This document shows, piece after piece, positions 21,691 to 38,697 of a stretch of 64,000 nt of DNA. The DNA lies in contig CAVQMQ010000008.1 of the NCBI GenBank assembly GCA_963713645.1, forward strand, positions 6,473 through 70,472, read 5' to 3'. The position numbers and the translations under genes are program-made. This stretch comes from an uncultured Acidobacteriaceae bacterium (GTDB lineage Bacteria > Acidobacteriota > Terriglobia > Terriglobales > Acidobacteriaceae). A model generated the notes under the pieces. That model searched no databases and was not told the origin of the DNA. It saw only the letters and a program-made list of their open reading frames with translations. Numbering within the stretch: the first letter of the stretch is position 1; each line of letters opens with the position of its first letter.

Positions 21691-22989
21691 CTATTGGCTT
21701 GGCGGCTTGGCGGAAGAGCTGTCCTTCGCCGCAGGAGCGGCGTCTGCGGGTTTGTCAGGCGGAGCAGGCGCGGCTGCTTTCTGTCTGCGGTCGGCGGCCT
21801 TCTGCAACTCTTCGTCCTGCTTTTCTTTTTCCGCGGCGGCCTGCGCGTCGGTCACATAGCGGAAGACCTGCAACCGTCCGGGAAATTGCTCGGTGGTGAA
21901 GACCCGGTTGTACTTGTCGATCGCTACACCCACCAGGGCTTTGAACTGGCCGGGCAACTCGCCGTGTCCCTGGCCGATATATGTGAGCAACTGGCCATCG
22001 CGGTTGAAGACCTGAAGGCGGTCTTCCATCTCGTCGGCCACCCAGATATGCCCGTCGCCATCAACAGCGATACCCTTGGGCCGCGCGAAGCATCCGGGGC
22101 CATCGCCATGCTTGCCGAAGAGGCTGATGAAGTTGCCGTCGGCATCGAAGATCTCGACGCGATTGTTCAGCGTGTCGGTCACGTAGACATTGCCGTCCTG
22201 ATCGAGAGCCACGCCCTGCGGCGCGCCGAAGTCGCCTGGGCTGGTAAGGAAGTGATTCTTGCCGCCGGTGCCGATGCGCCTGAGCAGCTTGAGTGTGTCC
22301 GCGTCGTAGACGATGACCTGGTCCTGCTGAGTATCTACGACGTAGAGAAAACGGTTGGCTGTATCTATGGCCAGGCCGACCGGGTCTTCGAGGCCCTCGG
22401 TGATCTGGCCTTCAACTTCATGTTTCTTGTTGAAGATCATCACACGGTGCATCTTGCCGTCAGAGACAAAGAGGCGGTCATCGTCATCGATGGCCAAACC
22501 GTTGATCCAGCCGAAGTGAGCCTCGTAGCCGTTACGAATCATCTGTACGTCACGTGTAACCGTGTTGAAGATGAAAACAGCGCCCACCTTTTGATCGGCC
22601 ACATAGACCAGGCCATTGGAGTCGATGGCAATGCCGTAGGGGCCGATAAGTTGGAAGGGAAAGGTCTTGGGATTAAATTTTTCAGCCTGCGATTGCCCGC
22701 CCGCCAGGCGGTCCATCCAGGTGGCCTTGGGTTTGTCGTTGGCTGCCGGGGTGTAATCGATCTTTGCGCCGGCATAGTAGTCGAGCCAGCGAACGCGGGC
22801 GATGTTGGGCGGGCTGGGCCAGACTAGCTTGGAGGGGTCAAAGGGGAATTTGCGCGGACCGACAGCGGGCGCAGGAGTGTCGGCCTTTTTCTTCGCTGCG
22901 CTGGCGGGAAAAGGAAGGGTGAGCGAGAGCAGCAGGAAGGCAGCGAGCAGCCTGGGAGCGCGAGGCGAATTCGTGAATAAGTAGTTCAT
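21691..22989 (-). CDS. secreted NHL-repeat beta-propeller protein
   Basis: Signal peptide, WPSPPNIARVRW leader, repeated PxGxAxD...YVxD...RV.IF units. Confidence 0.9.
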   Translation of the reverse strand: MNYLFTNSPRAPRLLAAFLLLSLTLPFPASAAKKKADTPAPAVGPRKFPFDPSKLVWPSPPNIARVRWLDYYAGAKIDYTPAANDKPKATWMDRLAGGQSQAEKFNPKTFPFQLIGPYGIAIDSNGLVYVADQKVGAVFIFNTVTRDVQMIRNGYEAHFGWINGLAIDDDDRLFVSDGKMHRVMIFNKKHEVEGQITEGLEDPVGLAIDTANRFLYVVDTQQDQVIVYDADTLKLLRRIGTGGKNHFLTSPGDFGAPQGVALDQDGNVYVTDTLNNRVEIFDADGNFISLFGKHGDGPGCFARPKGIAVDGDGHIWVADEMEDRLQVFNRDGQLLTYIGQGHGELPGQFKALVGVAIDKYNRVFTTEQFPGRLQVFRYVTDAQAAAEKEKQDEELQKAADRRQKAAAPAPPDKPADAAPAAKDSSSAKPPSQ

Positions 22990-23001
22990 CTCAAACTCCG
23001 T

Positions 23002-24496
23002 TTACTTCTCCGGGGAAGTTGTTTCTTTCATATTCAGGCGGTTCTTGTGGCAGTTGTCGCAGAAGGCCATGTTGTTTTCCTGGTCTTTTACCAACAGGTC
23101 AGCGTGCGATGAGGCATGCGCTTGATGGCAACTGAGGCAACTGAGCGGCGTCTTCACTTTTGTTTGATTCGTCGGGTCCATCACGTCCGAGACAGGATGG
23201 TACTCGACTGGGTGCCCGAGGCCAAAGCGCAAAGGCAGAATAGCCACCTTGTTCTTCTTGTAGTAATCGTCAGGAAGCTTGACCGTGCCGTTAAAGATCG
23301 TCAGCAGATGCTGGTCCGCGACAGGCTGCGGAGCCGAATCCGGTCCGTGGCACTCAAGGCAAAGCGCATTGCCCTTGGCGCGCAGCAGGTGATCGTTGTC
23401 GCCGCCATGCGGAGTGTGGCAAGTTGCGCAGCCTTGCGTAAAGGCGGGCTGATGGTGGAACGGCTTTTTGCCCAGGTCGCCGATGTCGGTGTGGCAGCCG
23501 GTGCAGATGCTCACCGGATCTGTCTTGGGCAGGCCGGGTTCGTTGCTGGCGTGCGGGCTGTGGCAATCGGTGCAGTCGCCTGCCGCGCCGGGGTGCGGCA
23601 CTTTCGCGGAGTCGATGAGCTTGGCTTTGTCGTCGTGGCAGGTAACGCAGAGTGCTTTCACGTCGGTCTGCGTCAGCACGACTTTTCCGTCTTTGGCCGG
23701 CGCGTGGCACATTTCGCAGCTCTTTGCCTCAAAGGGCACATGCTGAAACTTGGCCATCAGCTTGGGCGCGGCGGATTGATGCGGGTCGTGGCACTCCAGG
23801 CAGTTGGCCGTGGCGAAGGGCTGATTCTGATGGGCCTTGGCCAGCTCTGGATCTTTCGCATCGTGGCAATCGAGGCAGAGCGCGGGGGCGGCTTTGGTCA
23901 AATGGAAGCGGTTCTCAACTGTCGGCTCAGCGCCGGTTTTGTGGGTCAGGTGGCAGGCGTCGCAGCCTGCTTCGAGCGCTGCATGGCGGCTGCCCTTCTC
24001 CGGCACATTCAGCCCGGTCTTGTGGCAACTGAGGCAGAGGTTTTCTTTCTCACTGCCCGACATCGGCTTGAGCAACTGATTCTTGTTGTCGCTGACGTGG
24101 GGATCGTGGCAGGTGAGGCAGTCGCGCACCGCCGGCGGATGGACTGTGCCTTTGATGTCGGCGGCTTTTTTATCCGCGTGGCAACTGATGCAGAGCGATA
24201 CCGGCGTCGCGGTGATCAGCTTGACTCGGGTGACATCTTTATTGACGCGGACCTCATGGCAACCGAGGCAGCCGGCGGCCATCGCCGAGTGAACTGACTT
24301 GCCCTTGCTCTTGTCGTCGTGGCACTCCACGCATTTGGCGGCGTCGGTTCTTGGGGTCGAGCGGCACGGGATGAACGGCGGCCGAGGCGCGCGCGGCCAG
24401 CATCGCAAAGAAAATGGCCCAAAGAAAAATCCGCGGCGTGTGACAGCCGGACTTGGCGACCGTTCGGCACCACGCGCGATGAGGAACCAACTGCAT
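23002..24496 (-). CDS. 16-heme c-type cytochrome (paired-CxxCH type); N-terminus separated by a +1 frameshift near 24348
   Basis: 16 CxxCH counted. The signal peptide (IFLWAIFFAMLAARASA-AVHPVPLDPK) lies in another frame from ATG 24496 (GGAG RBS); deleting one base in AAGAACCGAC gives ...PK-TDAAKCVECH. Confidence 0.88.
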
Positions 24497-24514
24497 ACCG
24501 ACTCCGAAACAGGC

Positions 24515-24766: not shown

Positions 24767-24782
24767 GGTGATTTATATCACA
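24767..24782. promoter_or_regulatory. CRP-type operator
   Basis: GGTGA-tttata-TCACA (9/10 match to TGTGA-N6-TCACA) in the divergent region between the 16-heme and tetraheme-B genes. Confidence 0.55.
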
Positions 24783-24967: not shown

Positions 24968-25831
24968 ATGATTCGAATTATTTTGTTGGTCCTGCTGTTT
25001 CTTGCTACCGCAAGCTTCGCCCCGGCGCAGATCGTGTCGGCGACGACCGATGTGCTGGGCGCGCACCTGAACTATGGCCGGGGTTGCGCGGCCTGCCATG
25101 CTCCGCACAGCGGATCGGAAGGCAACGGCAACACAAAAAAAGCCGACTCCGCTTCCGGCAATTCTATGCTCTGGGGCGAGGATGTGAGCAGCCTCTACGG
25201 CAAGACCATCACTACAGGCGGAGGCAAATTTGTCGAGACGCTGCCCACCAGCATGTCGGCCACTACGCCGGATGTGAACGGAATGCTGACCTGCCTCAGT
25301 TGCCACGACGGCAACTATGCGTCGAGCGCGATGATGAAGAACCAGCTCTATGAGACGCTGCCCGCGAGTTACGGAACGCATAACACCGTGCCCACACTGC
25401 TGGGCAATAACAGCACCGGCGCTGGCAATTATCTCAACGAGCATCCAACAGGACTAAGCGCGGTGATCAAGTGCGGCGGCAACGGCTGGGATTGCTCACA
25501 GGCCAATGGCGTGGTGAGCATGAAGGGCGCGAACTCCAGCCAGTTTGTGGCTAACTACGGATTCTTTGTGCAGCCAGGGAGTTATAACAACAGCGCCGTG
25601 GTGGTTTGCACCACCTGCCACAATCCGCACACGATGAATGTGGTGACGGTAACTCACGGAACGAACTCCGGCCTGCCTGCGGGCAACTACGCGACGATGT
25701 TCTTTTTACGCGGCCCCTATAACCCGAAGGATACTAACTCGCAGTCAAACCAGACGGCGCAGTTCTGCCGCCAGTGCCACGGAGATTTGTCGAATGAGAT
25801 GAATGGCAGCACGGCGGGAACGGTGTTTTAG
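24968..25831 (+). CDS. secreted tetraheme cytochrome c, OmcE-like layout (paralog B)
   Basis: Signal peptide; GAH...CAACHAPH...LW...CLSCHDG...LNEHP...CTTCHNPH...FLR...CRQCH; CAGGAG RBS. Confidence 0.88.
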   Translation: MIRIILLVLLFLATASFAPAQIVSATTDVLGAHLNYGRGCAACHAPHSGSEGNGNTKKADSASGNSMLWGEDVSSLYGKTITTGGGKFVETLPTSMSATTPDVNGMLTCLSCHDGNYASSAMMKNQLYETLPASYGTHNTVPTLLGNNSTGAGNYLNEHPTGLSAVIKCGGNGWDCSQANGVVSMKGANSSQFVANYGFFVQPGSYNNSAVVVCTTCHNPHTMNVVTVTHGTNSGLPAGNYATMFFLRGPYNPKDTNSQSNQTAQFCRQCHGDLSNEMNGSTAGTVF

Positions 25832-26017
25832 TGCCCGGATATACTGATTGCGTTCGGCGGATATTAAAGAATGAAAAGCCTGGAGGGTTATGCTTTCTCA
25901 TGTCCAGAAATGCGAGGGGCATAGGATAGCCATTCTTTGTACTCGATTAGGCCTTTGACACTTGCCTCGATGTGGTATTCTATATTCGCCTGCTCTGGCG
26001 ACTCTGCGCGATCAACT

Positions 26018-26173
26018 ATGAATCATCACCGTATTCGTGCGCCTAAAAGGCGCACCAGAGCAGATTTCGTTCATATCCTCGTGCAAGTAAAGCTCTTCGC
26101 TCTTGAGCTTGCGGCGACGATTCTATTCGTTGTATGGGTTTATCGTGAGCTAATCCATGAACTCCGGCGCTGA
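26018..26173 (+). CDS. putative small membrane protein (51 aa)
   Basis: Basic N-terminus then FVHILVQVKLFALELAATILFVVWVY; TTGACA upstream (25955) and a GC hairpin with T-tract downstream. Confidence 0.4.
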   Translation: MNHHRIRAPKRRTRADFVHILVQVKLFALELAATILFVVWVYRELIHELRR

Positions 26174-26299
26174 GTTCTTCTATACGCAGGTGTTCGAGCT
26201 GGACAGGTGTTGGGCGCCCCGGGCCGAGACATTCGGACCTAGGGCACTGGGTATTGGTCTTCAGGCCCGGGCCTTTTTATCGCGGCAGCTGAATCGAAA

Positions 26300-26466
26300 G
26301 GCCCGCGGCTAAAGCAGGGTTGCTGGTGAGGCTGGATTCGGCGGCCTGAAGGCCGCTGCTCCCTCCGACTTTTTCATTATGCATTGATGGATGGTTAATT
26401 TCTTTAATCTGGAGCGCGGAGTTTGTGCTTTCCCATGTCCCCAAAAGCGAGGGACATGGGGCACCC
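26300..26466. repeat. REP-like hairpins
   Basis: GCGGCC-TGAA-GGCCGC near 26341 and TCCCATGTCCC-CAAAAGCGA-GGGACATGGG-GCACCC (26431-26466). Confidence 0.65.
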
Positions 26467-26533
26467 AGCTTCTATGAAAGATTGAGATGTGGTCCACCCG
26501 CCGGGGGTCTGATCGCCGCGCACCGCCTCGATT

Positions 26534-27052
26534 TCAATAGGCGGCAACGGCTTTCTTGACGATCGGCCGGAGCGTATCCAGGTCTGAGTAGGGGGAACTC
26601 ATAAATATAATGCCCTGGCCCTTTGTGAATACCACGAACAACCCCTGCACCCCTTCTTGGAAGTACGCGAACGCGTGGTCGCCGATTCCGCTTTCATCTC
26701 GGGTATGGAGTACCCTGGCGTCTTTCATGGCATGTGCCCGCATGCGTGTGAACGCTTGCTCCGGACTCTCGCCCTTTTCCGCCTGGACTAAGGAAATACT
26801 TAAGTACGCCGGCGGCTTGCCCTTTTCTGGCGCCATGCACATACAGGTGTACATCCTGGGCGTCAGAGTCGGCGGCTTGGAGGCCTTAAGCAGTACCATC
26901 AGATCGGCTGGCTGCACTAAGCCGCAGAGCTTCTTCGACGTTTCGGTCTCAAACTGCGCGCCAGCCGGACTCGCGCTCAGCAGCGCCGCCAGTATCATAT
27001 TCGCTGCGATCCAGCAGCGCCTGTCTTTATGCGAGTGCACTCGATTTTGCAT
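26534..27052 (-). CDS. secreted hypothetical protein (DUF3558-like cysteine pattern)
   Basis: Signal-like ILAALLSASPAGA-Q, LCGLV...TCMC, GIGDHAF. Confidence 0.55.
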   Translation of the reverse strand: MQNRVHSHKDRRCWIAANMILAALLSASPAGAQFETETSKKLCGLVQPADLMVLLKASKPPTLTPRMYTCMCMAPEKGKPPAYLSISLVQAEKGESPEQAFTRMRAHAMKDARVLHTRDESGIGDHAFAYFQEGVQGLFVVFTKGQGIIFMSSPYSDLDTLRPIVKKAVAAY

Positions 27053-27877
27053 CGGAGCTTCCATGGTTTTCACGCGCACCTCTGCGCAATGCAAGTTGCA
27101 TCGGATAGGAACTCGAAGATTATAGCATTTGGCAGGTGGGCGGGTCCCCGCAAGATCGCTTTGTGTAAGGACCGAAACCGTCGCACTCGGCGGCTATCCG
27201 TCGAGAAAAATGAAAGGCAGCGCCCTTCAAACGGACAGCGATCCTGCGACTGCACCTCCGCGCTCGCCGTCTGCAAGAACATCCTCTCTGCGTTATACCT
27301 CAGCGCCCTCAGTGTCTCTGCGTTTGATTTTTCCTAATCCGGCGTAGTCGGAACCAAAGGGGTTGTGGCTATGATGCGGTGTGGACATCGAACTGCTAAC
27401 GGAAGGCGAGTTTAGAATCGGACGCTCGAAAAACCCGTTCCCTGTCGTCAAGAGCTGTGCCCCCTCAGCTCCCCACGGGCTGACCTGCCTCCCACTGGTT
27501 GGAAATTTGGTAGCATTTTGGTAACAAATACCGCCGACTGGGCCGGTTTTGCAGGTTTATCCGTCTCATAAGTCTCATTAGGGTATAAATATACTTGACA
27601 AACCAATGGTGAGGGTTAAAGCGTGACACCGCTTGAAAACACGCTTACCTTTTGGTTCTGCAGCAAATAGGTTTGTCTACGCCGTAGAAATGAGCAAATT
27701 TATGAAGGAACTGCCGGAGCATGTGATAGCTCCACCTACGCACGCGGATGGTGAGTCAAGTATATATATGCCGTTCTAACGAACTGATTTTATTTATTCA
27801 TGCGGATTATGAATCAGTATCTTGTACAGTTCGACGGCGAGTTGTCCCACTCACGATCTTCAGATAGAAGCCGCCCC

Positions 27878-28020
27878 CTACTCCGTCCACGGATCGAGCA
27901 GCTTCACTGGAGTCCCTTGCACATCGCGGATATTCCGCGTAACCAGCGTCAGATCGTGCTGTACGGCGGTTGCTGCCAGCAGCGTGTCCACAAGAGGTCT
28001 TGGCCGCACCCCTGACCAAT
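27878..28020 (-). pseudogene. C-terminal remnant of a PIN-domain (VapC-like) toxin
   Basis: RPRPLVDTLLAATAVQHDLTLVTRNIRDVQGTPVKLLDPW is a PIN C-terminal motif; the N-terminal half is absent and a REP hairpin lies just upstream. Confidence 0.75.
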
Positions 28021-28060
28021 CTCCTATAGCCTGGCGTCGGGATCGGGAAACGTCTGTGGT

Positions 28061-28094
28061 TTCCCAGGTCCCAAAAAGCGGAACCTGGGAGACC
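28061..28094. repeat. REP-like hairpin
   Basis: TTCCCAGGTCC-CAAAAAGC-GGAACCTGGGA-GACC, same family as 26431 and 61798. Confidence 0.65.
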
Positions 28095-28107
28095 ATTTAT
28101 TCCGCGC

Positions 28108-29187
28108 TCAAAAATACGCGCAGGAATCGGTGTATGTTCCTCCGTTGGAGTAGGCGGCTGAGCTTAAGTCCCACTTCAGGCTGATGCCATCTCCCTTTCC
28201 TTCGACCGTTACCGAGACAGAAGCACTTCCAACGAAGGCCACGTCGCCATCTGTTTGAGCAATCGTCCGGCTTGTACTGCCCGTTGTTCCGGTAACGCCC
28301 TTATTGTCATGACCAAAGTGGTATCCAGGCCACCCACTTCCGCTGGAGGTATTGCTGAGAGCAAACGGCTGCGGCTTGCAACTGGTATCGCAGGTAATGC
28401 CGGCCTGCTGCTCCCCCAGACTCAAGGTCCACACGGTAATCCCGTAAATATCCTTACCGGTTGCGTCGTAATGAGCCCATGTATAAGTCAGGCCATAGTC
28501 CTTGGGGTGGCTCGCAAGACCGCATGTCCCCTTTGCTTCAGAGGTGGCGTCAGACGCAGGCTGCCGGGAGGTAGTGGCATTTGCGGGCTGGGTTAGATAT
28601 GTCACCCGCGGCCCCCATCCTTCCGCCTTCAGGCGAAGGCGGGTTTCGACCTTCGTCTGCAGGTAGTCCACGACCGGATCAAGCACCGCGCAGTGATCGA
28701 GTCCGGACCAGCAGAACTCCAGCGCTTCGTGGGAGCGCTGATCTCCGCCGATGGTTGCGCTTACCTGAAGGAGGCGATAGGAACCGTCTTCAAGAGGAAG
28801 CCCGAAGTCGGCGAACCTGTCTGCCTGATCTTCCATGTTGCGTTGCCCGTAGGCCGGATCTTCCGGCACGGCAAAACGGGGATTGCTGAGAATGGTTCCG
28901 GTCTGGTCGGCAAGGATGCGGTACTCGGGCACCGTGATCAACGTGTTAAAAGGCTTGCCTGCAAGGGCCGTCATGTCGCCGGACTCGAGCGTCTCTACGC
29001 TGAAGGAAATCGCTCCGGAGGTTGCAGTGGCGTACTCATTGTAGAGTCCTTCCGCATAATTGGCGACGAGCGGAGGTTGCGTGAAAGCGAGGGTTGGTTT
29101 CAGGGCTTGCTGCGTTCTGGCGATCGGCCCACTGGCCAAAAGTGAGACGAGCAGAATTCCGGTCACGTTCCAATTTGTGCTGTTCAT
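28108..29187 (-). CDS. secreted hypothetical protein (359 aa, 6 Cys)
   Basis: ATG with GAGAGG RBS, signal peptide, Gly/Ser/Thr-rich beta-type C-terminal half; no family recognised. Confidence 0.7.
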   Translation of the reverse strand: MNSTNWNVTGILLVSLLASGPIARTQQALKPTLAFTQPPLVANYAEGLYNEYATATSGAISFSVETLESGDMTALAGKPFNTLITVPEYRILADQTGTILSNPRFAVPEDPAYGQRNMEDQADRFADFGLPLEDGSYRLLQVSATIGGDQRSHEALEFCWSGLDHCAVLDPVVDYLQTKVETRLRLKAEGWGPRVTYLTQPANATTSRQPASDATSEAKGTCGLASHPKDYGLTYTWAHYDATGKDIYGITVWTLSLGEQQAGITCDTSCKPQPFALSNTSSGSGWPGYHFGHDNKGVTGTTGSTSRTIAQTDGDVAFVGSASVSVTVEGKGDGISLKWDLSSAAYSNGGTYTDSCAYF

Positions 29188-29245
29188 AGGAACCTCTCCA
29201 TTTTCGGATTGTGATGGTCACGGATTGTGGGTGGACGCGGATTAC

Positions 29246-29362
29246 TAGAGCGGTTCTCCAATTTCTGTGGAGTAGCTGAAATTGTGCAAGGTGACTTTTT
29301 CTTGAGTAAAAAGTCACTTGAGTACATCAATTCCGCTCTACACCAATTGGAAAACGGCTATA
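29246..29362. mobile_element. MITE-like repeat, copy C
   Basis: TAGAGCGGTTCTCCAATT...GTGACTTTTTC-TTGA-GTAAAAAGTCAC...TCCGCTCTACACCAATTGGAAAACGGCTATA. Confidence 0.75.
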
Positions 29363-29687
29363 GCCGCGCCTTGGGTTCTGAAACCAGGCAACTGCAAAGC
29401 AAGGTTTTTAGTTAATTGCACTACAGATAGGGGAAGATGGAGCAGACACTGCTTTGTTCCCGTGCAGGGCCAATAGGAACGATGCTTCGTGAATCTGGGT
29501 TGCGTTGGCGTGTCAAGCGCTGACTAAGGAGGTCCAGCTAGTCACAGACTGTACCCTGGAAGGTTCTGGATGTCAAGACGGACATTTGTGTGCACAGGGG
29601 CAAATAGGACGCGGTGTCACTCACCATTTAGGCTTAAGCCGTTCTAATCTATGGCTACACTACTCCTTGACTCGCGGTGATAATTTC

Positions 29688-31574: not shown

Positions 31575-32641
31575 CTGGTTCCTCCGGCAGCGGATTTTTT
31601 CAGAGCCGCGTATTGAAAGACCTGAACGCGGCGATTAAACGAATCGACGACGAAGACGTGATCGGATGAATCGATGAAGAGGCCGGAGGGCAACTGAAAC
31701 TGGCCGGCGTGGGTTCCTGCTTCGCCGAAGTTATAGAGGAGTTCTCCTTGGCGGTTGAAGACCTGCACCATGCCCCACTGGGCATCGACGATGTAGAGAT
31801 CGCCTTCAGAGTCCGCGCTGACGGCTTTGGGGCGGAAGATTGCGCCGGGCGAGTCGCCGAGCTTGCCAATGGCGTACTGGAATGCGCCGGAGCGGTCGAA
31901 GACCTGGATGCGGAAGTTCATGGCATCGACGACGATGAGGTTGGGTCCGTCGAGGCGCAACTCGGTGGGGAGATTGAATTCGCCGTCGGCCTGGCCGGAT
32001 TTGCCGATGGTCTGAAGGACGCGGCCTTCCATGTCGAGAACATAGACCTGGTCGCGCAGCGTGTCCGTCACATAGATGCGCTGGGCTGCGGAGTCAACGG
32101 CGATGCCAGTGGGACGCTTGAAAAAACCTTCGCCTTTGACGCTCCCGAGGACGCGGAGGAATTTGCCGCTGGGTGCGAAGACGAAGATCTTGCCCGCGTC
32201 GGAGTCAGTGACATAGATATTGTCCTGGGCATCGACGGCGATGCACTGCGGGGTGCGCATCGGGTTTTTGTCTTTCTCGTTGCGCTCGATGAATTTGTAT
32301 TTGCGCTCGGTGAAGTCGAAGATATGCACGCCCTCTGCGCCAGGATCGGTGACAAGGATGCGGCCGTGGGAGTCAACGGCGATGCTGTAGGGGCGGACGA
32401 GAGAGTGATAATCGGGCGCGCCGGCGATCACATCAACGAGCTTGTTCCAGAAGCCGCGATTGGGCTTGACTTCAAACTCAGAGCTGAAATTGCGCTGCCA
32501 GGTGAGCTTGCGGCCGCCATCGAGCGACATCTCCCACTGCTCGGGCGTTGTGGCGTGGGGCTTGTTTGCCGCGGTTGCGCAGAGCGGAGTGAGCGCGATG
32601 ACGGCCAGCAACAGGGCCGCGCGCTGAGGTTCCCGCCGCAT
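31571..32641 (-). CDS. secreted NHL-repeat beta-propeller protein
   Basis: Signal peptide; RPYSIAVD, RPTGIAVD, LPTELRLD, RPKAVSAD, LPSGLFID repeats; ATG 5 nt after the barrel stop. Confidence 0.9.
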   Translation of the reverse strand: MRREPQRAALLLAVIALTPLCATAANKPHATTPEQWEMSLDGGRKLTWQRNFSSEFEVKPNRGFWNKLVDVIAGAPDYHSLVRPYSIAVDSHGRILVTDPGAEGVHIFDFTERKYKFIERNEKDKNPMRTPQCIAVDAQDNIYVTDSDAGKIFVFAPSGKFLRVLGSVKGEGFFKRPTGIAVDSAAQRIYVTDTLRDQVYVLDMEGRVLQTIGKSGQADGEFNLPTELRLDGPNLIVVDAMNFRIQVFDRSGAFQYAIGKLGDSPGAIFRPKAVSADSEGDLYIVDAQWGMVQVFNRQGELLYNFGEAGTHAGQFQLPSGLFIDSSDHVFVVDSFNRRVQVFQYAALKKSAAGGTR

Positions 32642-32646
32642 CGCTC

Positions 32647-34500
32647 TCAGAAGAAGTTGAACCAACGCGAGACTCCGATATAGAACGAGGATACAACCTG
32701 CGGCGCTGTGCCGGAGGTGCTAAAGCCCTGCTCGATGCGGGCGAAACCGCTGTTGAAATTCAACTTGCGGAATTGGTACTGCACCAGGGTATTGAACTGG
32801 TTGCTCTGGTTGGTGGAGGAGATCGAGTTGCTGAATGTATTGCTGAGGGATTTGGAATAGGCCGCCGCGATGACGAATTTCTTCACCGGCGTGCTCGATA
32901 GTCCAATGGAATAACTGTTGCCGCCGAAGAGGCTGACCAGATCAGAGTCGCTGGTCGTCGTGCCAACCGGAACTGGCACCAGCCCGGAGCCGGTTTCAAG
33001 AGCCTGTCCGCTGGCTTTGGAGTAGCTGCCAGTAGCGGTGATCAGCGGTCCATAGCCGATGCTGGCGTTGTAACTCTGGCTGCTGTTGGCGGTGCCTGCA
33101 TCTTCAGTCAAACCTGTGCGCGAGGCTCCCGCGCCGGCGCTCACGTTGAATTTTCCCCAGCGGCGGCGGGCATTGGCCGAGTAGTTATAGAAGGAGTTCG
33201 TATAGGTGACGAGCAGAGTCTGAACATTCTGGGCGTAGCCGAAGGAGCCGTTGACCTGCCAGCCAAGAAGCTGCTTGGAGTAGTTTTCCGTGGTTGAAAA
33301 TCCCAGGGAGTTTTCTCCGGTTTTTTCGGCGGTATTTTCAGTCACCGTCATTGCCGCGTTGAAGGTGCCGTCGAGCAGCGCATAAGCGTAGGTTGCGCTT
33401 GCGCCGTAGGATTGCACGCCGTAGTCTTGGCCGAGGTAGGATTGGGAGCGGCGTTCGGCGAAGACAGACCCCTGCAGATCGGCGAGCGGAGCGTAACTCG
33501 CTACCGCCAGCAGATCGAGCGAGTTGGAGGACTGGTCTGAATCTGTTCCGGAGACCACGCCGCCAGCCGCGACGACGGACTGCTCCAATTGCCCGGCGAG
33601 ATTGTCAGAGTAATTCGCGCTGACCGAGACGGTGAGCTTGCCGGCGGGATGCACGGCAGCGAGGGCGTTCATCATGTCAATGGTTCCGCTAGAGCCTGCG
33701 CCGAGGTATTCGCTGTTCCAACTGGAGCGGTTGATGCCGGCGGAGACTGAGCCTTTGAGGGGCAGAACATGCGAGACATTGAAGCCGAGGGCGCTGCTGC
33801 TGGACTTAGATTCTGAATCCGCTTCGCCGGAGACGACTTCGGGGATGAGCGCATGGCCGCCGCCGAGGGAATAATAGGCGCCCATGACGAAGCCCGCGTA
33901 TTTATAGCCGGAGTGCAGGTTGAGGGAATGGAATGCGTTTTGTCCCTGATCGCTGGTTCCGTAGACGGAATACTGGCTCGAGCCCATCTGGAATCCGGCG
34001 GAAAAACTTGGCGCGTCTGGGAGGTTCTCGCTCCAGTTGAAGCCGAAGGTATCGCTGTTGCCGTGGGTGACGTAATTGGCCATGCCGGGCACGGCGTAGT
34101 TGCCCTCGCTGTTGTAGGCCTTGGAATAGTTGATGGAACCGGGGAAGCGGCTGCCGCCGAAGATGTTGGCGGAGGCATCGATGCCACTGGCATCGGAGAT
34201 GGACTGGAAGTTGGAATTGGCCCGCGATTGATTCAGGTAGAGACCGACATTGAAGGAAAGAAAATTCGGGTTGTAATAGGAGCCGTTGAAATTGGCTGCT
34301 CCGCCGACGGTCCAGGTATGATCGGAAGCCGTCTGATTGCCGTAATCGGCGGTATAACCCGGCGCAATCGTGCCACTCAGGTCGGTGCTGAAGTCGCCGA
34401 ATTTGATTTGTGCGCTGGCCGGAAAAGCGAGCAGCAGAAACCCAGCCAGCAGGAAAGATGCTGCGGGCCAGGAATTCGTTGCTGTGCGACTGCTGTGCAT
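32647..34500 (-). CDS. outer-membrane beta-barrel protein (617 aa)
   Basis: Signal peptide, many alternating-hydrophobic Ser/Gly/Tyr-rich strands, no Cys, C-terminal aromatic signature IGVSRWFNFF. Confidence 0.82.
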   Translation of the reverse strand: MHSSRTATNSWPAASFLLAGFLLLAFPASAQIKFGDFSTDLSGTIAPGYTADYGNQTASDHTWTVGGAANFNGSYYNPNFLSFNVGLYLNQSRANSNFQSISDASGIDASANIFGGSRFPGSINYSKAYNSEGNYAVPGMANYVTHGNSDTFGFNWSENLPDAPSFSAGFQMGSSQYSVYGTSDQGQNAFHSLNLHSGYKYAGFVMGAYYSLGGGHALIPEVVSGEADSESKSSSSALGFNVSHVLPLKGSVSAGINRSSWNSEYLGAGSSGTIDMMNALAAVHPAGKLTVSVSANYSDNLAGQLEQSVVAAGGVVSGTDSDQSSNSLDLLAVASYAPLADLQGSVFAERRSQSYLGQDYGVQSYGASATYAYALLDGTFNAAMTVTENTAEKTGENSLGFSTTENYSKQLLGWQVNGSFGYAQNVQTLLVTYTNSFYNYSANARRRWGKFNVSAGAGASRTGLTEDAGTANSSQSYNASIGYGPLITATGSYSKASGQALETGSGLVPVPVGTTTSDSDLVSLFGGNSYSIGLSSTPVKKFVIAAAYSKSLSNTFSNSISSTNQSNQFNTLVQYQFRKLNFNSGFARIEQGFSTSGTAPQVVSSFYIGVSRWFNFF

Positions 34501-34730: not shown

Positions 34731-35756
34731 TTACAGAATCTCGACCTTCGTGCTCTGCCGCAGCTTTTTATCCAGGTCGGCGCGCAGGTCGTTTTTCTTC
34801 TTCTCGTGCAGTTCTTTTTCCAGTTGCGCTTTCACCTCTTCAAATTTCGCTTTGCCTGCCGGGGTGTGCACGTTGAGGTGAACGATGGTGTAGGCCTGAT
34901 CCATCTGGATGAGATCGCTGACATCGCCGGGCTTCATTGCCGCGAGAGCCTTGATCACCTGCGGGGCAAGCTGGTCAACAGGAAGAGGCTTATGCTGGCC
35001 CATCATTACGCGGTAATCGTCGTCAGAGAGCTTCTCGGCGAGCAGGCCAAATTCCTCCGCTGTCTTTGCGGCTTTCGCTTGTTGCAGCGCCTGCTCGGCG
35101 CGCTTGCGGCCTTCCTTCGACTGATCGGCGGTGGCGTTTGGGGGAGGGAGAACGGAAATCGTCTGGAAGGTGTAGGACTCGGGGTGCTGGAATCGGGATG
35201 GATTCTTTTCGTAGTAAGCCCGCAGTTCTTCCGGCGTGACACTGCTCCTGCTTTCTACTTCAATTTTCAGAAAGGCTTCAATCAGCAGCGAGCGGCGAAT
35301 CTTCTCTTCGAGCAATTTTTCAGAACCGTGAAAGTCGGCCTGCAGGGATGCGTTGAATTCTTCGGGGGTTGCGTATTGCTTGCGGAAATCCTCTTCGGCA
35401 TGTTGCAGCTTCGCTGCGGGCACGGTCATCTTGCGGCGCTGCGCTTCCTGATAGACCATCTCTTCGAAGACGATCATCTTCAGCGCGCCATCGCGGATCT
35501 GAGATTCCAGTTCTTTGGGGACGCCGTTGTGTTGGCGGGCGTAGGGAAAGATCGCATATTCTTCGCGGACCAGATCGGCATCGGTGAGGACCGTGCCGTT
35601 GACGCGCGCCACGGGCTTATCCGCGATCTGCGTGAGCGCATTCGGCTGCTGTGTAGCTTGCTGCTTGAGGACGGTTGGTGCGTGAGAGGCCACCTGTGCG
35701 TCGGCAGCGGTGAGTGCCAGCAGAAGGAATCCGCAAGTTGTGAGTTTGTGCATCAT
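34731..35756 (-). CDS. SurA/PrsA-like peptidylprolyl isomerase (parvulin) chaperone
   Basis: Signal peptide, KPVARVNG, SurA-N-like helices, YYEKN..RF, F..LA..LSDD, KPGDVSDLI. Confidence 0.85.
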   Translation of the reverse strand: MMHKLTTCGFLLLALTAADAQVASHAPTVLKQQATQQPNALTQIADKPVARVNGTVLTDADLVREEYAIFPYARQHNGVPKELESQIRDGALKMIVFEEMVYQEAQRRKMTVPAAKLQHAEEDFRKQYATPEEFNASLQADFHGSEKLLEEKIRRSLLIEAFLKIEVESRSSVTPEELRAYYEKNPSRFQHPESYTFQTISVLPPPNATADQSKEGRKRAEQALQQAKAAKTAEEFGLLAEKLSDDDYRVMMGQHKPLPVDQLAPQVIKALAAMKPGDVSDLIQMDQAYTIVHLNVHTPAGKAKFEEVKAQLEKELHEKKKNDLRADLDKKLRQSTKVEIL

Positions 35757-35795
35757 GGTGGACCTTCAGATTCCGGTTTCCGTCGAGTGTTTTGC

Positions 35796-35826: not shown

Positions 35827-35842
35827 GTTCTATGCAGGTCGA

Positions 35843-36712
35843 TTAGAAGGTTGTGACAGCGGTGCTGCCGTTCATTTCGTTGGACTCGCCACCGTGGCAC
35901 TGGCGGCAGAACTGCGCGGTCTGGTTGCTGTTCGCAGTGCCGCTGGCCGGGTTGTAGGGTCCGCGCAGGAAGAACATGGTCGCGTAGTTGCCGCTGGTCA
36001 GGCCGGACTTCGGTCCGTTGGTGACCTTGACCACGTTCATCAAGTGCTGGTTGTGGCAGGTGGTGCAAACCACAACGGGCTGGTTGTTATAGGTGCCAGG
36101 CGAGACAAAGAATCCGTAGTTGGTGACGAAGAGGCTGGAGCCCGCTCCGTTCATCTGCACCGCGCCCGTCGCGCTGATGGTGCAATCCCAGTTGTACTGG
36201 CCGCCGCAACCCATGACGGCATTGAGTCCTACCGGGTGATCGTTGAGGTAGTTGCCGGTGGTGGTGCCGTCGTTGCCGAGCAGGGTTGGGATGGTGTTGG
36301 CGGTACCGTAGGTGGCGGGCAGGGTCTCATAGACCTGGTTCTTCATCATGGCACCCTGCGCGTAGTTGCCGTCGTGGCAGCTGAGGCAGGTGAGCAGGCC
36401 GGAAACGTCAGGCGTGATGGCCGCCATGCTGGTGGGCAGGACTTCTACATCAGCTCCGCCGCCAGTGGTGATGGTTTTGCCGTAGAGGCTACCGACATCC
36501 TCGCCCCAGAGAGCGACGTTGCCCGAGGTTGGATCGGCGGTCTTGGCGTTGCCGTTGCCGTATGCGCCACTATGTGGGGCATGACAGGCAGCGCAGCCGC
36601 GGCCGTAATTGAGATGTGCGCCGAGTACGTCGGTAGACGGCGTGGTGATCTGGGCCGCCGCAAAGCCGGCGCCTGCCAGAAACATCAGGGAGATTAAAGA
36701 AATGCGTTTCAT
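35843..36712 (-). CDS. secreted tetraheme cytochrome c, OmcE-like layout (paralog A)
   Basis: AGGAGG RBS, signal peptide; GAH...CAACHAPH...LW...CLSCHDG...LNDHPV...CTTCHNQH...FLR...CRQCH; exactly 8 His in the mature chain. Confidence 0.9.
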   Translation of the reverse strand: MKRISLISLMFLAGAGFAAAQITTPSTDVLGAHLNYGRGCAACHAPHSGAYGNGNAKTADPTSGNVALWGEDVGSLYGKTITTGGGADVEVLPTSMAAITPDVSGLLTCLSCHDGNYAQGAMMKNQVYETLPATYGTANTIPTLLGNDGTTTGNYLNDHPVGLNAVMGCGGQYNWDCTISATGAVQMNGAGSSLFVTNYGFFVSPGTYNNQPVVVCTTCHNQHLMNVVKVTNGPKSGLTSGNYATMFFLRGPYNPASGTANSNQTAQFCRQCHGGESNEMNGSTAVTTF

Positions 36713-37002
36713 GTAGTAGAGCCTCCTGGTGCTCACTCTTGCTGCTCGACTGAACTGCGATGTTGGCCTCTCCGGCGCTTTCGTCAGTTCAGCCTTCCTG
36801 GACAACATCTGCCTGACCGATGCCGTAGCCGTGAGCGCAAGCGTTCCTGGGCGGCATCCCTAATTGATTGTTGAGGCTAACGTTCTTGTATCCAGCGTGA
36901 TAGCGGGTTGCCGGAACTCGCACTCCTTTGGCAGACTGTCCCGTACCCTTACCTTGGTGTAAGGGCGAGTGAAAATCGGTTACGGAGTGTATCGTTTTCA
37001 TA

Positions 37003-37226
37003 CGTGAGTCCCATCACCCTGTGTAATGCAGATAGCCGTGGATTAAGGCTTCCGCACACACTCGACATGCTCCCTGTATTTATTCAGGTGACAAGAGTCA
37101 CCCTCTGTGATGTGAGTCACGCATGGTAATTAAAGGCTTCTTTGTGATAGTCATCACACGCCTGCGTGATGCAGAGTGCCTGCCGGATTTTCCCTCCCCG
37201 CTAAAGTAATTGTGAGCAGTCTCACA
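37003..37226. promoter_or_regulatory. array of five CRP-type operators
   Basis: CGTGA-N6-TCACC (37003), GGTGA-N6-TCACC (37087), TGTGA-N6-TCACG (37106), TGTGA-N6-TCACA (37143), and AAT-TGTGA-N6-TCACA-TTT (core at 37211). Confidence 0.75.
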
Positions 37227-37249
37227 TTTGAGCAGAGAAAAGATAAGGA

Positions 37250-38044
37250 ATGGTCAACGAGGCACCAACAGCGATCAAAGCAATTCCCACACTGAAGACG
37301 GTGCAGGTTTACACGATGGCTGGGTTGTGCTTGCTGGGCGGGCTGGCGACGGGTTATTTGCTGGGGGGATCTCATGCGCCGGCTGCTCCTGGGCAACCGG
37401 CGTCCGTCGCCGCAACGGCTCCGGTTCTGCCAAGCGCGGCCAATGCTGCACAGATGCCGGGACTCGCAGAGATGAAGCAGGGAACGGCTGTGCAGGCGCA
37501 ACCGGCTTCAGGCGCAGTACGGTCTCCGCATACTGGCAGCGTGGCAAGCGGCGGACGGATGCCCAGCCTGCAAGAGATGAAGCAGATGGCCGACAAACAG
37601 GCCGCGCCGCTGCTCGAAAAGCTGAAGAGCGATCCCAACAACGGCGCATTGCTGGTGCAGGTGGGAGGCATTTATCATTCGACGCACCAGTTCGCCGAGG
37701 CGGTTGCCTATTACGGCAAAGCCGTGCAGGTTGAGCCGAAGAACGTTGACTATCGCACAAAGCTGGCGATCAGCATCTATCGAGGCGGCGACGCGGATGG
37801 AGCGATCGCTCAACTGAATCAGACGTTGAGTATCGACCCCAAGAACGCGAATGCTCTCTTCAACCTGGGTATGATCCGGTTGCAGGGCAAGCAGGACGGC
37901 AAGGGCGCGTTGGCAGCCTGGCAGATGTTGCTCAAGTCCAATCCGCAATTGAGTCCCGACCGCAAGGCGGCTGTACTGAAACTGATGGCCGATGTGATGA
38001 CGACGCTTGGCGAAGAGCCGGGAACGCGAGGCGCAAAGCAATGA
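37250..38044 (+). CDS. membrane-anchored TPR protein
   Basis: N-terminal TM (VYTMAGLCLLGGLATGYLL), Pro/Ala linker, TPRs (DPNN, EPKNV, DPKNANALFNLG). Confidence 0.85.
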   Translation: MVNEAPTAIKAIPTLKTVQVYTMAGLCLLGGLATGYLLGGSHAPAAPGQPASVAATAPVLPSAANAAQMPGLAEMKQGTAVQAQPASGAVRSPHTGSVASGGRMPSLQEMKQMADKQAAPLLEKLKSDPNNGALLVQVGGIYHSTHQFAEAVAYYGKAVQVEPKNVDYRTKLAISIYRGGDADGAIAQLNQTLSIDPKNANALFNLGMIRLQGKQDGKGALAAWQMLLKSNPQLSPDRKAAVLKLMADVMTTLGEEPGTRGAKQ

Positions 38045-38697
38045 CAGATATCCGACAAACCAGAGAATGGACGCGAGGGCAGGCAGCTCTGTTGTTCGCG
38101 GTCTGCCTTGTCGTGGGCATTGCGGGTGGCTGGACGATTCGCGGATTCAATACCACGGCAGCAAGCAACTCCGCGCCAATGGCCAATGCAGCTACGGCGC
38201 AAGGGAATAAAGTGGGCACTGCAGCGCCCACTGCCACGCGGCTGAAAGAGATGGCGGATGCCCAGGCAGCGCCTCTGGTGGAGAAGCTTAAAGCAGAGCC
38301 CAAAAATCCTGATCTGCTCATAGGCATCGGCAACCTATATTACGACGCGCAACAGTACCCTATCGCCGTTGACTACTACGAACGCGCGCTTGAGGCCCGG
38401 CCCTCGGATGCAGCCGTGCGCACCGATATGGGGACTGCCTACTGGTATATGGGCGATGCCGACCGGGCGCTTGCCGAGTTCGATAAGGCGCTCGGCTATG
38501 CGCCGAACAATCCCAATACGCTCTTCAATCGCGGCCTGGTGAAGTGGAAGGCAAAAAGGGACGGCGCGAGTGCGGCCGCCGATTGGCGGAAGCTGCTGGC
38601 CGTGGACCCGAACTACGCCGAAAAAGGTCAGGTGAACCAGATGCTGTCCGAAGTGGGAAAGCAAGCGGCAGCGCAGCCTGCGATGTCAGGAAAGTGA
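38041..38697 (+). CDS. membrane-anchored TPR protein (paralog of the preceding gene)
   Basis: N-terminal TM, QAAPLVEKLKAEPKN, PNNPNTLFNRG; ATGA overlap with the upstream stop. Confidence 0.85.
   Translation: MTDIRQTREWTRGQAALLFAVCLVVGIAGGWTIRGFNTTAASNSAPMANAATAQGNKVGTAAPTATRLKEMADAQAAPLVEKLKAEPKNPDLLIGIGNLYYDAQQYPIAVDYYERALEARPSDAAVRTDMGTAYWYMGDADRALAEFDKALGYAPNNPNTLFNRGLVKWKAKRDGASAAADWRKLLAVDPNYAEKGQVNQMLSEVGKQAAAQPAMSGK

What the first reader, a model, noticed from the sequence alone, without database searches (positions are those of the whole stretch)
21691..38697. Candidate cytochrome-nanowire / extracellular electron transfer system in an Acidobacteriaceae-like genome
Seen: 17 kb encoding four secreted multiheme proteins (16, 4, 12 and 4 hemes), an outer-membrane beta-barrel, two NHL propellers, a SurA-like PPIase and two membrane-anchored TPR proteins, mostly co-oriented and partly translationally coupled. 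Known: Geobacter OmcE/OmcS filament genes lie next to NHL, TPR and further multiheme genes, and porin plus multiheme pairs form outer-membrane conduits. Inference: this is a near-complete filament kit (subunits, export pore, chaperones, periplasmic relay) in a lineage usually treated as aerobic or fermentative polysaccharide degraders. It would let such cells respire Fe(III) or humics in peat or soil. I cannot tell whether the locus is already described.
Basis: partly seen in the sequence, partly recalled or inferred. Interest (0 to 1): 0.92.

Follow-up and report, generated by a model that had tools for sequence, protein, structure and literature searches.

The report
OmcE/Uet-type cytochrome conduit in Acidobacteriaceae
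This soil or peat Acidobacterium (Terracidiphilus-like) carries a conserved gene cluster related to the Geobacter/Desulfuromonas "OmcE nanowire" and Tenderia "Uet" systems. It probably moves respiratory electrons across the outer membrane, perhaps along a cytochrome filament, but its three-gene core was already reported in a 2026 preprint.

Summary
Window 21691-38697 encodes cytochromes with 16, 4, 11+1 and 4 haem motifs, two NHL propellers, a SurA-like PPIase, a 617-aa outer-membrane barrel and two membrane-anchored TPR proteins.

Main results:
- The two tetrahaems are remote but clear OmcE-family members (profile vs D. soudanensis OmcE filament 9YUQ, E 4.7e-11; profile-profile probability 99.6%).
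- The first ~210 residues of the 12-haem protein are a complete OmcE module.
- Both propellers and the 16-haem protein are homologous to parts of a canonical omcE cluster.
- The barrel models with about 28 strands, and its best structural match is MtrB.
- Gene order is collinear with the Tenderia uet cluster.
- The cluster is syntenic in about 80 Terriglobales species, including cultured Occallatibacter savannae.
- CRP-type boxes in its promoters are conserved.

Caveats:
- Filament formation and the direction of electron flow are untested.
- The 16-haem gene carries a +1 frameshift in this assembly.
- The porin-NHL-cytochrome core was described as "EET1" by Fiorito et al. (bioRxiv, May 2026).

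Verdict: a new member of a known kind, of moderate interest.

The parts
21691..22989 (-). NHL1: six-bladed NHL beta-propeller, Sec signal, no lipobox Cys
   Evidence: Pfam NHL E 5.6e-28. phmmer E 1e-42 to the NHL proteins of a canonical omcE cluster, L084. 75-90% identical in relatives, always downstream of MHC16.
23002..24496 (-). MHC16: 16-haem MtrA/DmsE-like cytochrome, with a +1 frameshift at about 24343-24355 that separates the signal peptide from the haem domain
   Evidence: 16 CxxCH. TIGR03508 DmsE family 170 bits, below the 192 cut-off. E 2e-54 to the 19-haem cytochrome of L084. Frameshift: 22 nt here versus 21 nt in 35/35 relatives.
24767..24782 (.). CRP-type box (1 mismatch) in the divergent MHC16/tetrahaem-A promoter
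24968..25831 (+). T4a: OmcE-family tetrahaem, paralogue of T4b (74% identity)
   Evidence: 4 CxxCH. Scores 382 bits against the A1 profile. Present in most relatives between MHC12 and MHC16.
25832..29687 (.). Lineage-specific insertion slot (186-aa and 359-aa ORFs with no family). Not part of the conserved cluster.
   Evidence: Relatives have only 0.2-2 kb between MHC12 and MHC16. The nearest relative, L004, carries a different cargo there, a 946-aa DNA-methylase-like ORF.
29688..31574 (-). MHC12: N-terminal complete OmcE-like tetrahaem module (about residues 1-210) fused to 8 further haem sites (7 CxxCH plus CVMVCH)
   Evidence: hhalign of the N-terminus vs OmcE family profile A3: probability 99.2%, E 1.4e-19, 198 columns covering all four motifs. 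Same against A1. The homologue in Fiorito et al. is a '13-heme OmcE-like MHC', AF3 vs 7TFS TM 0.70.
31571..32641 (-). NHL2: NHL beta-propeller, translationally coupled to MHC12
   Evidence: Pfam NHL and DUF5128. E 1e-55 to the NHL protein next to an OmcE homologue in L083.
32647..34500 (-). Outer-membrane beta-barrel of about 28 strands, MtrB-like
   Evidence: AF2 pLDDT 72, all-beta, about 28 strands. Foldseek top hit is MtrB, 6R2Q_B, TM 0.51, E 3.7e-9. The C-terminal ...SRWFNFF is conserved in 70+ relatives. No Pfam or NCBIfam hit.
34731..35756 (-). SurA-like parvulin peptidyl-prolyl isomerase (UetB/OscH-like position)
   Evidence: Pfam Rotamase_2 E 7.9e-21 plus SurA_N. Always lies between the tetrahaem and the barrel.
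35843..36712 (-). T4b: OmcE-family tetrahaem, first gene of the operon, candidate filament subunit
   Evidence: Family profile vs 9YUQ E 4.7e-11 and 7TFS E 2.8e-3. hhalign vs OmcE family probability 99.6%. The mature protein has exactly 8 His, with very low charge.
37106..37226 (.). Three CRP-type boxes (TGTGA-N6-TCACA, two perfect) in the divergent T4b/TPR promoter
   Evidence: Conserved upstream of T4b in 53 of 58 relatives, 2.19 per kb versus 0.078 per kb background.
37250..38044 (+). TPR1: membrane-anchored TPR protein (weak CcmI/NrfG-like)
   Evidence: Pfam TPR families. PF23914 TPR_CcmH_CycH 40.4 bits, below the 42 cut-off. NrfG E 2e-4. Conserved divergently from T4b in about 70 relatives.
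38041..38697 (+). TPR2: membrane-anchored TPR protein, overlaps TPR1 by 4 nt

Best explanation
This is the Terriglobales version of the OmcE/Uet type of outer-membrane electron-transfer machine.

Shown here:
- The cluster encodes two OmcE-family tetrahaems.
- It encodes a 12-haem protein whose N-terminus is a full OmcE module.
- It encodes an MtrB-like barrel of about 28 strands, two NHL propellers and a 16-haem MtrA/DmsE-like cytochrome. The propellers and the 16-haem protein are homologous to those of canonical omcE clusters.
- It also encodes a PPIase and two TPR proteins.
- It is conserved as a unit and preceded by conserved CRP-type boxes.

Inferred mechanism:
1. Quinol electrons leave the inner membrane through a CbcL-like multihaem/cytochrome b fusion, or through a Rieske/cytochrome b module as in relative L086.
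2. They pass to the periplasmic 16-haem wire.
3. They cross the outer membrane inside the barrel. The C-terminal eight haems of MHC12 either thread the barrel or meet MHC16 there.
4. They emerge at the OmcE-like head of MHC12.
5. That head may seed or anchor a polymer of the tetrahaem subunits T4b and T4a, using the His-to-neighbour-haem contact known from OmcE filaments.

The PPIase would act as a folding chaperone, the NHL propellers as periplasmic scaffolds, and the TPR proteins as CcmI/NrfG-like maturation or assembly helpers. Direction may be outward (to humic or particulate organic matter, or Fe(III)) or inward.
For: - Homology of T4 to OmcE: 9YUQ E 4.7e-11; 7TFS E 2.8e-3; hhalign probability 99.6%, E 5.6e-24; E 9e-16 to the OmcE homologue of L084.
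- Ligand blueprint: four CxxCH plus four further conserved His (H33, H47, H159, H223), in the same local contexts as in the OmcE family.
- MHC12 N-terminus equals an OmcE module.
- Accessory homology: NHLs E 1e-42 to 1e-55 and MHC16 E 2e-54 against L084/L083.
- Barrel.
- Synteny over about 80 species and at 35% identity depth. In L086 the cluster directly follows Rieske-cytochrome b-9-haem genes.
- Compartment signature: T4a, T4b, MHC12 and the barrel have 8-12% charged residues, against 23-30% for the NHLs, MHC16 and the PPIase.
- Haem maturation genes and a CbcL-like protein are present in the genome.
- Petersen et al. 2026 define omcE clusters by this same gene set.
- The uet cluster has the same gene order.
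- Fiorito et al. report in-situ transcription of the core in peat.
Against: - There is no direct evidence of polymerisation. AF2 without haems failed (pLDDT 46), so no fold test of T4 was possible.
- T4 is about 70 residues longer than OmcE, and only its N-terminal about 60% aligns confidently.
- The barrel has no detectable sequence similarity to the barrel of the canonical omcE cluster.
- The propellers lack the lipobox seen in Desulfuromonadia.
- MHC16 is frameshifted in this assembly.
- The host lineage is known as aerobic, and no anaerobic respiratory phenotype has been tested.
Confidence: 0.7

Rival explanations
1. The cluster is a conduit only. The barrel, MHC16 and MHC12 form an Mtr-like trans-outer-membrane wire, and the tetrahaems are monomeric surface or periplasmic electron carriers that do not polymerise. 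This is how Fiorito et al. frame EET1, as a porin-scaffold-cytochrome system.
For: The barrel's best structural match is MtrB. MHC16 is DmsE/MtrA-like. A tetrahaem with eight His can equally be a self-contained bis-His monomer. T4 differs from OmcE in length and in its C-terminal third. Petersen et al. note that OmcE-like tetrahaem sequences are widespread and that not all need be nanowires.
Against: T4 meets the operational criterion used for nanowire-competent OmcE homologues, namely a neighbouring large barrel and propeller. T4 is the first gene behind the regulated promoter, is duplicated, and has the same low-charge composition as the barrel and MHC12 rather than the periplasmic proteins. 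An OmcE module on MHC12 is hard to explain without an OmcE-type partner.
Confidence: 0.3
2. The same machine works mainly inward. It takes electrons from Fe(II), reduced humics or other cells and passes them to the aerobic or microaerobic chain (cbb3-like genes lie 4-8 kb away), as proposed for Uet in Tenderiales and for the NHL/multihaem clusters of D. ferrophilus.
For: Gene order is collinear with uetA-B-C...H/I-J plus an NrfG-like TPR protein. The D. ferrophilus NHL/multihaem clusters are induced for electron uptake. The hosts are aerobes. A FixO-like/cytochrome c fusion and a haem-copper-oxidase-like gene lie nearby. Mto/Mtr conduits are considered reversible.
Against: Peat transcripts of the core extend into deep anoxic layers where no oxidant for an uptake chain is evident. 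The genome has a CbcL-like protein typical of outward electron transfer. Sequence cannot decide the direction.
Confidence: 0.3
3. In this particular genome the system is decaying or non-functional, because the 16-haem periplasmic wire is a pseudogene.
For: A +1 frameshift lies between the signal peptide and the haem domain, absent from 35 of 35 relatives. A foreign 3.9-kb insert sits inside the cluster.
Against: All other genes are intact and highly conserved. The shift is a single extra base, which is also what an assembly or sequencing error would give.
Confidence: 0.2

Closest known systems
omcE nanowire gene cluster of Desulfuromonadia (G. sulfurreducens OmcE filament PDB 7TFS; D. soudanensis WTL OmcE bundle PDB 9YUQ; Petersen et al. 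2026, PMC13712944)
   Same: [quoted passage not shown] T4, both NHLs and MHC16 are sequence-homologous to their counterparts.
   Different: - Gene order differs.
- T4 is about 70 residues longer, its C-terminal third is divergent, and it is duplicated.
- The barrel shows no sequence similarity.
- The propellers are not lipoproteins.
- The second multihaem is a 12-haem OmcE-module fusion, not the 8-haem protein.
- A PPIase and two TPR proteins are added.
- Acidobacteriota are not among the five phyla listed by Petersen et al..
uet (undecahaem electron transfer) cluster uetABCDEFGHIJ-ccsAB-nrfG of 'Ca. Tenderia electrophaga' (bioRxiv 10.1101/2022.05.06.490989)
   Same: The order is the same: tetrahaem (UetA), PPIase (UetB), 28-strand barrel (UetC), NHL (UetH/I), 11-haem extracellular cytochrome (UetJ), with an NrfG-like TPR protein nearby (compared).
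   Different: There are no trihaem c7 proteins (UetD/E/G), no cupredoxin (UetF) and no adjacent ccsAB. A 16-haem/NHL pair is present instead. Uet is interpreted as an electron-uptake system. Sequence homology to the Uet proteins was not tested here.
'Acidobacteriota EET1: Porin-NHL-CytC cluster' (Fiorito et al., bioRxiv 10.64898/2026.05.27.727921, May 2026)
   Same: It is almost certainly the same locus type. It is found in Terriglobales, with an MtrB-like porin (6R2Q, TM 0.48, against my 0.51), an NHL scaffold and a 12-13-haem OmcE-like cytochrome. It occurs in 49 MAGs and is transcribed in peat.
   Different: In the text and supplement I searched, that work describes only the three-gene core. 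It does not mention the tetrahaem OmcE-family genes, the PPIase, the TPR pair, the 16-haem/NHL1 pair, the CRP boxes, or the correspondence to the omcE and uet clusters.
MtrCAB porin-cytochrome conduit (Shewanella; PDB 6R2Q)
   Same: A large barrel that could sheath a multihaem wire, and a DmsE/MtrA-like periplasmic cytochrome.
   Different: There is no MtrC/OmcA-family surface decahaem. The barrel is about 9% identical to MtrB. MHC16 is below the DmsE family cut-off.
osc (omcS companion) cluster of G. sulfurreducens (Shen et al. 2025, as summarised in PMC13194489)
   Same: A dedicated PPIase-type folding factor together with channel and propeller-like proteins sits beside a filament cytochrome.
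   Different: The subunit here is OmcE-type, not OmcS-type. Homology to the Osc proteins was not tested, because the paper is not held and no sequences were available.

Membership tests
OmcE-family tetrahaem cytochrome (filament subunit) | Four CxxCH motifs | tested here: met
   T4a and T4b each have four. The motifs are invariant in 34 family members.
OmcE-family tetrahaem cytochrome (filament subunit) | Four further conserved His for bis-His ligation, in OmcE order and context (H before motif 1; CxxCHxPH; NDHP; CxxCHxxH) | tested here: met
   H33, H47, H159 and H223 are invariant or nearly so. The same motifs are invariant in the OmcE family alignment A3. Mature T4b has exactly 8 His.
OmcE-family tetrahaem cytochrome (filament subunit) | Sequence homology to an OmcE with a solved filament structure | tested here: met
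   Profile vs 9YUQ E 4.7e-11 and vs 7TFS E 2.8e-3. hhalign probability 99.6% over 146 columns. A single-sequence search finds nothing.
OmcE-family tetrahaem cytochrome (filament subunit) | OmcE fold and haem packing | tested here: inconclusive
   The AF2 model without haems has pLDDT 46, so no fold search was run.
OmcE-family tetrahaem cytochrome (filament subunit) | Polymerises with an inter-subunit His-haem bond | not testable with these tools
   This needs AF3 with haems, or cryo-EM.
omcE-type gene cluster (criteria of Petersen et al. 2026) | [quoted passage not shown] | tested here: met
   T4b-PPIase-barrel. The barrel has about 28 strands. However, it shows no sequence similarity to the L084 barrel.
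omcE-type gene cluster (criteria of Petersen et al. 2026) | Two beta-propeller lipoproteins | tested here: inconclusive
   Two homologous NHL propellers are present (E 1e-42 to 1e-55). They have Sec-type signals without a canonical lipobox Cys, unlike those of L084.
omcE-type gene cluster (criteria of Petersen et al. 2026) | Two further multihaem cytochromes | tested here: met
   MHC16 is homologous to the 19-haem protein of L084 (E 2e-54). MHC12 is present but not homologous to the 8-haem protein.
uet cluster (Tenderiales) | Order tetrahaem-PPIase-28-strand barrel ... NHL-undecahaem, plus an NrfG-like TPR protein | tested here: met
   Architecture as given, compared.
uet cluster (Tenderiales) | Trihaem c7 proteins UetD/E/G and cupredoxin UetF | tested here: not met
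   No such genes lie in 21.6-38.7 kb.
uet cluster (Tenderiales) | Sequence homology to the Uet proteins | not tested
MtrCAB conduit | MtrA/DmsE-family decahaem | tested here: inconclusive
   TIGR03508 scores 170 bits against a 192 cut-off.
MtrCAB conduit | MtrC/OmcA-family surface decahaem | tested here: not met
   TIGR03507 reaches only 38.9 bits against a 209 cut-off.

The most novel reading that the evidence does not exclude
MHC12 may be the base (nucleator or anchor) that Petersen et al. say is missing from omcE operons. Its N-terminus is a complete OmcE module, fused to an eight-haem stalk, and its gene is co-transcribed with the barrel. In this reading MHC12 plugs the 28-strand pore, presents an OmcE-type His/haem interface on the cell surface, and templates polymerisation of the very abundant, so far unannotated long-form OmcE tetrahaems (more than 5,000 90%-identity clusters in metagenomes). 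If so, CRP-regulated cytochrome filaments would be a common surface structure of nominally aerobic soil and peat Acidobacteriaceae.
Probability: 0.25. Interest if true: 0.8.

Novelty: new member of a known kind. Interest (0 to 1): 0.5.

Why it matters
Acidobacteriaceae are among the most abundant bacteria in acidic soils and peat and are usually treated as aerobic polymer degraders.

A conserved, regulated OmcE/Uet-type machine in about 80 or more species would give a molecular route for electron exchange with humic or particulate organic matter, or with iron. That process is thought to suppress methane formation in bogs.

The ecological point was already made in the 2026 preprint. This analysis adds five things:
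- the cluster is the counterpart of the structurally characterised omcE system;
- it contains true OmcE-family tetrahaems, the candidate wire subunits, which the preprint did not report;
- the 12-haem protein carries an OmcE module suited to anchoring such a wire;
- the promoters carry conserved CRP-type sites;
- a cultured strain, Occallatibacter savannae AB23, carries the cluster, so the hypothesis can be tested at the bench.

Tried and rejected
- Single-sequence PDB searches with T4b and MHC12 found no OmcE or OmcS. Only the family profile did.
- AF2 of T4b with a 34-sequence alignment gave pLDDT 46. This is expected for a coil-rich haem protein modelled without haems, so I ran no fold search on it.
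- hhalign of the barrel family against the 743-aa barrel of canonical omcE cluster L084 found nothing beyond the signal peptide. Barrel homology therefore remains unproven, and only the fold class (MtrB-like) is supported.
- The D. soudanensis OmcE protein P0271 is not in the contig index. I used Geothermobacteraceae-like loci L083-L085 as the canonical reference instead.
- The Shen et al. 2025 (osc) and Wang et al. 2022 (OmcE) papers are not held.
So I made no phylum-wide tally, no read-level check of the MHC16 frameshift and no RNA evidence of my own.
- Comparison with L004 could not gauge the assembly's indel error rate, because L004 is only about 87% identical.
- I rejected the polysaccharide-export reading of the barrel. 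The top fold match is MtrB, and the barrel always sits between a PPIase and an NHL/cytochrome pair.
- I rejected the idea that the TPR pair is a bona fide CcmI. The matches are generic TPR hits below family cut-offs.
That search is weak for gapped repeats, so this is not a refutation.

Full report
**Observation.** ORF listing and motif counting confirm the inventory.

On the minus strand lie:
- NHL1 (21691-22989);
- a 16-CxxCH cytochrome, MHC16 (23002-24496);
- MHC12, with 11 CxxCH plus one CVMVCH (29688-31574);
- NHL2 (31571-32641);
- a 617-aa protein with no Pfam or NCBIfam hit (32647-34500);
- a SurA-like parvulin PPIase (34731-35756);
- a tetrahaem, T4b (35843-36712).

On the plus strand lie a paralogous tetrahaem, T4a (24968-25831, 74% identical), and two overlapping TPR genes with N-terminal hydrophobic anchors (37250-38697). 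All secreted components have Sec-type signal peptides by inspection. The flanks are ordinary chromosome: RecA, two aminoacyl-tRNA synthetases, a prolyl oligopeptidase, AcrB, a two-component system and others.

**Two corrections to the observation.**

1. MHC16 is split in this assembly. Its signal peptide (MQLVPH...ARASA/AVHPVPLD, from ATG 24496) is in one frame and the haem domain in another. The distance from the HPVPLD codons to the first CxxCH is 22 nt here and 21 nt in 35 of 35 related loci, so this is a +1 frameshift. It may be a sequencing error or a real lesion.
2. The 3.9 kb between T4a and MHC12 (25832-29687, with two ORFs of no family) is an insertion. Most relatives have T4a within about 1.4 kb between MHC12 and MHC16. 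The nearest relative has a different cargo, a 946-aa DNA-methylase-like ORF, at the same spot.

**Lineage and conservation.** A scan of species-representative genomes with T4b found 372 relatives. The best 80 are all Acidobacteriaceae, Terracidiphilus or Terriglobales, from peat, palsa, SPRUCE and Danish soils. They include the cultured Occallatibacter savannae AB23, and the nearest is an uncultured Terracidiphilus.

tblastn of all window proteins against these loci shows one architecture almost everywhere: TPR2 and TPR1 divergent from T4b-PPIase-barrel-NHL2-MHC12, then T4a in reverse, then MHC16-NHL1.

At much greater divergence (T4 35% identical), locus L086 has the whole set co-directional and directly preceded by Rieske, cytochrome b and 9-haem genes. 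L087 keeps T4-PPIase-barrel-NHL-MHC12. In L086 the T4 and barrel orthologues are the most diverged (35%), against 48-63% for the rest.

**What the tetrahaems are.** Single-sequence PDB searches are empty. An exhaustive HMMER search gave 400 50%-identity clusters. An alignment of 34 full-length members (A1) shows four invariant CxxCH plus four further conserved His: H33, H47 (CxxCHxPH), H159 (NDHP) and H223 (CxxCHxxH).

The A1 profile hits PDB 9YUQ with E 4.7e-11. That entry is the D. soudanensis OmcE filament bundle, as confirmed in the paper's data statement. It also hits 7TFS with E 2.8e-3. That entry is the G. sulfurreducens OmcE filament, an identification also given in the supplement of Fiorito et al..

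I built an OmcE-family alignment from database relatives of 9YUQ (A3). It has the same invariant motifs. Profile-profile comparison of A1 with A3 gives probability 99.6%, E 5.6e-24, over 146 columns. T4a and T4b are therefore a long-form branch of the OmcE family, about 70 residues longer with a divergent C-terminal third.

Mature T4b has exactly eight His. That matches four bis-His haems with none to spare, the situation described for OmcE subunits. The family is very abundant in metagenomes (more than 5,400 90%-identity clusters at E<=1e-10) and is annotated 'hypothetical protein' throughout.

**The 12-haem protein.** Its first ~210 residues align end to end with the OmcE family profile (probability 99.2%, E 1.4e-19, 198 columns). 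The alignment includes all four haem motifs and the ...FL..s.a.s.LC..CH tail. The same holds against A1, and BLASTP from the L086 tetrahaem agrees. MHC12 is thus a complete OmcE module followed by eight more haem sites.

Independently, Fiorito et al. report that the AF3 model of the homologous '13-heme OmcE-like MHC' matches 7TFS with TM 0.70.

**The accessory proteins.** I fetched a canonical minimal omcE cluster, L084, which is Geothermobacteraceae-like. Its order is 19-haem, NHL, 8-haem, NHL, OmcE homologue, 743-aa barrel, then a tRNA methylase and, a few genes further on, ffh. That matches the description by Petersen et al..
- NHL1 and NHL2 hit its propellers at E 1e-42 to 1e-55.
- MHC16 hits its 19-haem protein at E 2e-54.
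- The barrel does not match its barrel.

The AF2 model of the window barrel (pLDDT 72) is all-beta with about 28 strands. Its best PDB match is MtrB of the Mtr complex (6R2Q_B, TM 0.51, E 3.7e-9), ahead of TonB-dependent receptors and LptD. The C-terminal SRWFNFF is conserved. MHC16 scores 170 bits on the DmsE/MtrA model, below the 192 cut-off.

The propellers here lack the lipobox Cys present in L084. The TPR proteins give only generic TPR hits, with weak CcmI/NrfG-like signals below cut-off.

**Compartment signature.** T4a, T4b, MHC12 and the barrel have 8-12% charged and 38-46% S/T/N/G/Q residues. NHL1, NHL2, MHC16 and the PPIase have 23-30% charged residues. This is circumstantial evidence that the tetrahaems and MHC12 share the cell-surface environment with the barrel, while the rest are periplasmic.

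**Regulation.** Three TGTGA-N6-TCACA boxes (two perfect) lie within 120 bp of the divergent T4b/TPR promoter. A fourth, with one mismatch, lies in the T4a/MHC16 promoter. In 58 related loci, the 700 bp upstream of T4b carry 2.19 such boxes per kb, against 0.078 per kb elsewhere, and 53 of 58 loci have at least one. A CRP/FNR-family regulator therefore probably controls the cluster. Its signal is unknown.

**Rest of the pathway.** The genome (6.2 Mb, 98.7% complete) has three cytochrome c assembly family genes, CcmF-, CcmC- and CcsA-like by size. It has 16 ORFs with three or more CxxCH. One of them is an 11-haem protein fused to a cytochrome b561/HydC-type membrane domain. From my own knowledge, that is the architecture of Geobacter CbcL. 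An inner-membrane entry or exit point is therefore available.

**Comparison with what is known.**
- Petersen et al. 2026 (PMC13712944) define omcE clusters as two multihaems, two propellers, OmcE and a large barrel. They list five phyla, without Acidobacteriota. They also note that no anchor candidate is encoded in omcE operons.
- The uet cluster of Tenderiales has the order tetrahaem UetA, PPIase UetB, 28-strand barrel UetC, then NHL UetH/I, undecahaem UetJ, ccsAB and an NrfG-like TPR protein. This is collinear with the window's core, but it includes trihaem and cupredoxin genes that are absent here.
- Fiorito et al. (bioRxiv, May 2026) describe 'Acidobacteriota EET1: Porin-NHL-CytC' in Terriglobales and UBA7540. 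They report 49 MAGs, the same Foldseek hit to MtrB, and transcription through deep peat. Their text and supplement do not mention the tetrahaems, the PPIase, the TPR pair, MHC16/NHL1 or nanowires in the sense used here.

So the locus type is partly published. What is new is its identification as a full OmcE/Uet-type cluster with candidate filament subunits.

**Mechanism and confidence.** I am about 85% confident that this is a trans-outer-membrane multihaem electron conduit of the OmcE/Uet kind. I put about 50% on the tetrahaems forming a filament, and about 25% on MHC12 being its base. Direction of electron flow cannot be read from sequence, because the Uet and D. ferrophilus precedents are uptake systems. 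In this particular assembly, function also depends on whether the MHC16 frameshift is real.

Noticed in passing
window 24343-24355 (minus strand): There is a +1 frameshift in the 16-haem cytochrome gene, between the signal peptide and the first haem motif. The spacing is 22 nt here and 21 nt in 35/35 relatives.
   Followed up: partly
window 25832-29687; L004 17065-20495: The slot between the 3' ends of T4a and MHC12 is variable. Here it holds a 359-aa secreted protein and a 186-aa ORF with no family. The nearest relative has a 946-aa DNA-methyltransferase-like ORF there. Most relatives have nothing.
   Followed up: partly
L086 4412-7180: In a distant relative, the whole cluster is co-directional and directly preceded by Rieske, cytochrome b and a 9-haem cytochrome. 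This looks like a bc-type quinol module wired to the conduit.
   Followed up: partly
genome contig C34:332669-334927: An 11-haem c-type domain is fused to a cytochrome b561/HydC-type membrane domain (CbcL-like architecture). It is a candidate inner-membrane partner.
   Followed up: partly
genome contig C8:4350-5429 (about 1 kb upstream of the window start): A 7-CxxCH, 360-aa secreted cytochrome lies just outside the window. It was not characterised beyond generic cytochrome c3/c7 Pfam hits.
   Followed up: partly
window 42141-46414: This stretch holds a YceI-like protein, a 669-aa protein with FixO-like and cytochrome c domains at its C-terminus, and a 459-aa polytopic membrane protein with no Pfam hit. 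They lie upstream of MacB/FtsX-type ABC genes and a polyprenyl synthase. It is an unusual respiratory-looking operon next to the cluster.
   Followed up: no
window 18798-21477: A CBM2-containing protein with an internal 196-nt direct repeat (19437-19632 and 19740-19935, 81% identical) is followed by a 493-aa protein with no Pfam hit. They lie immediately upstream of the cluster.
   Followed up: no
window 18361-18376: A further CRP-type box (1 mismatch) lies outside the cytochrome promoters, near a small ORF with one CxxCH (17868-18317).
   Followed up: no
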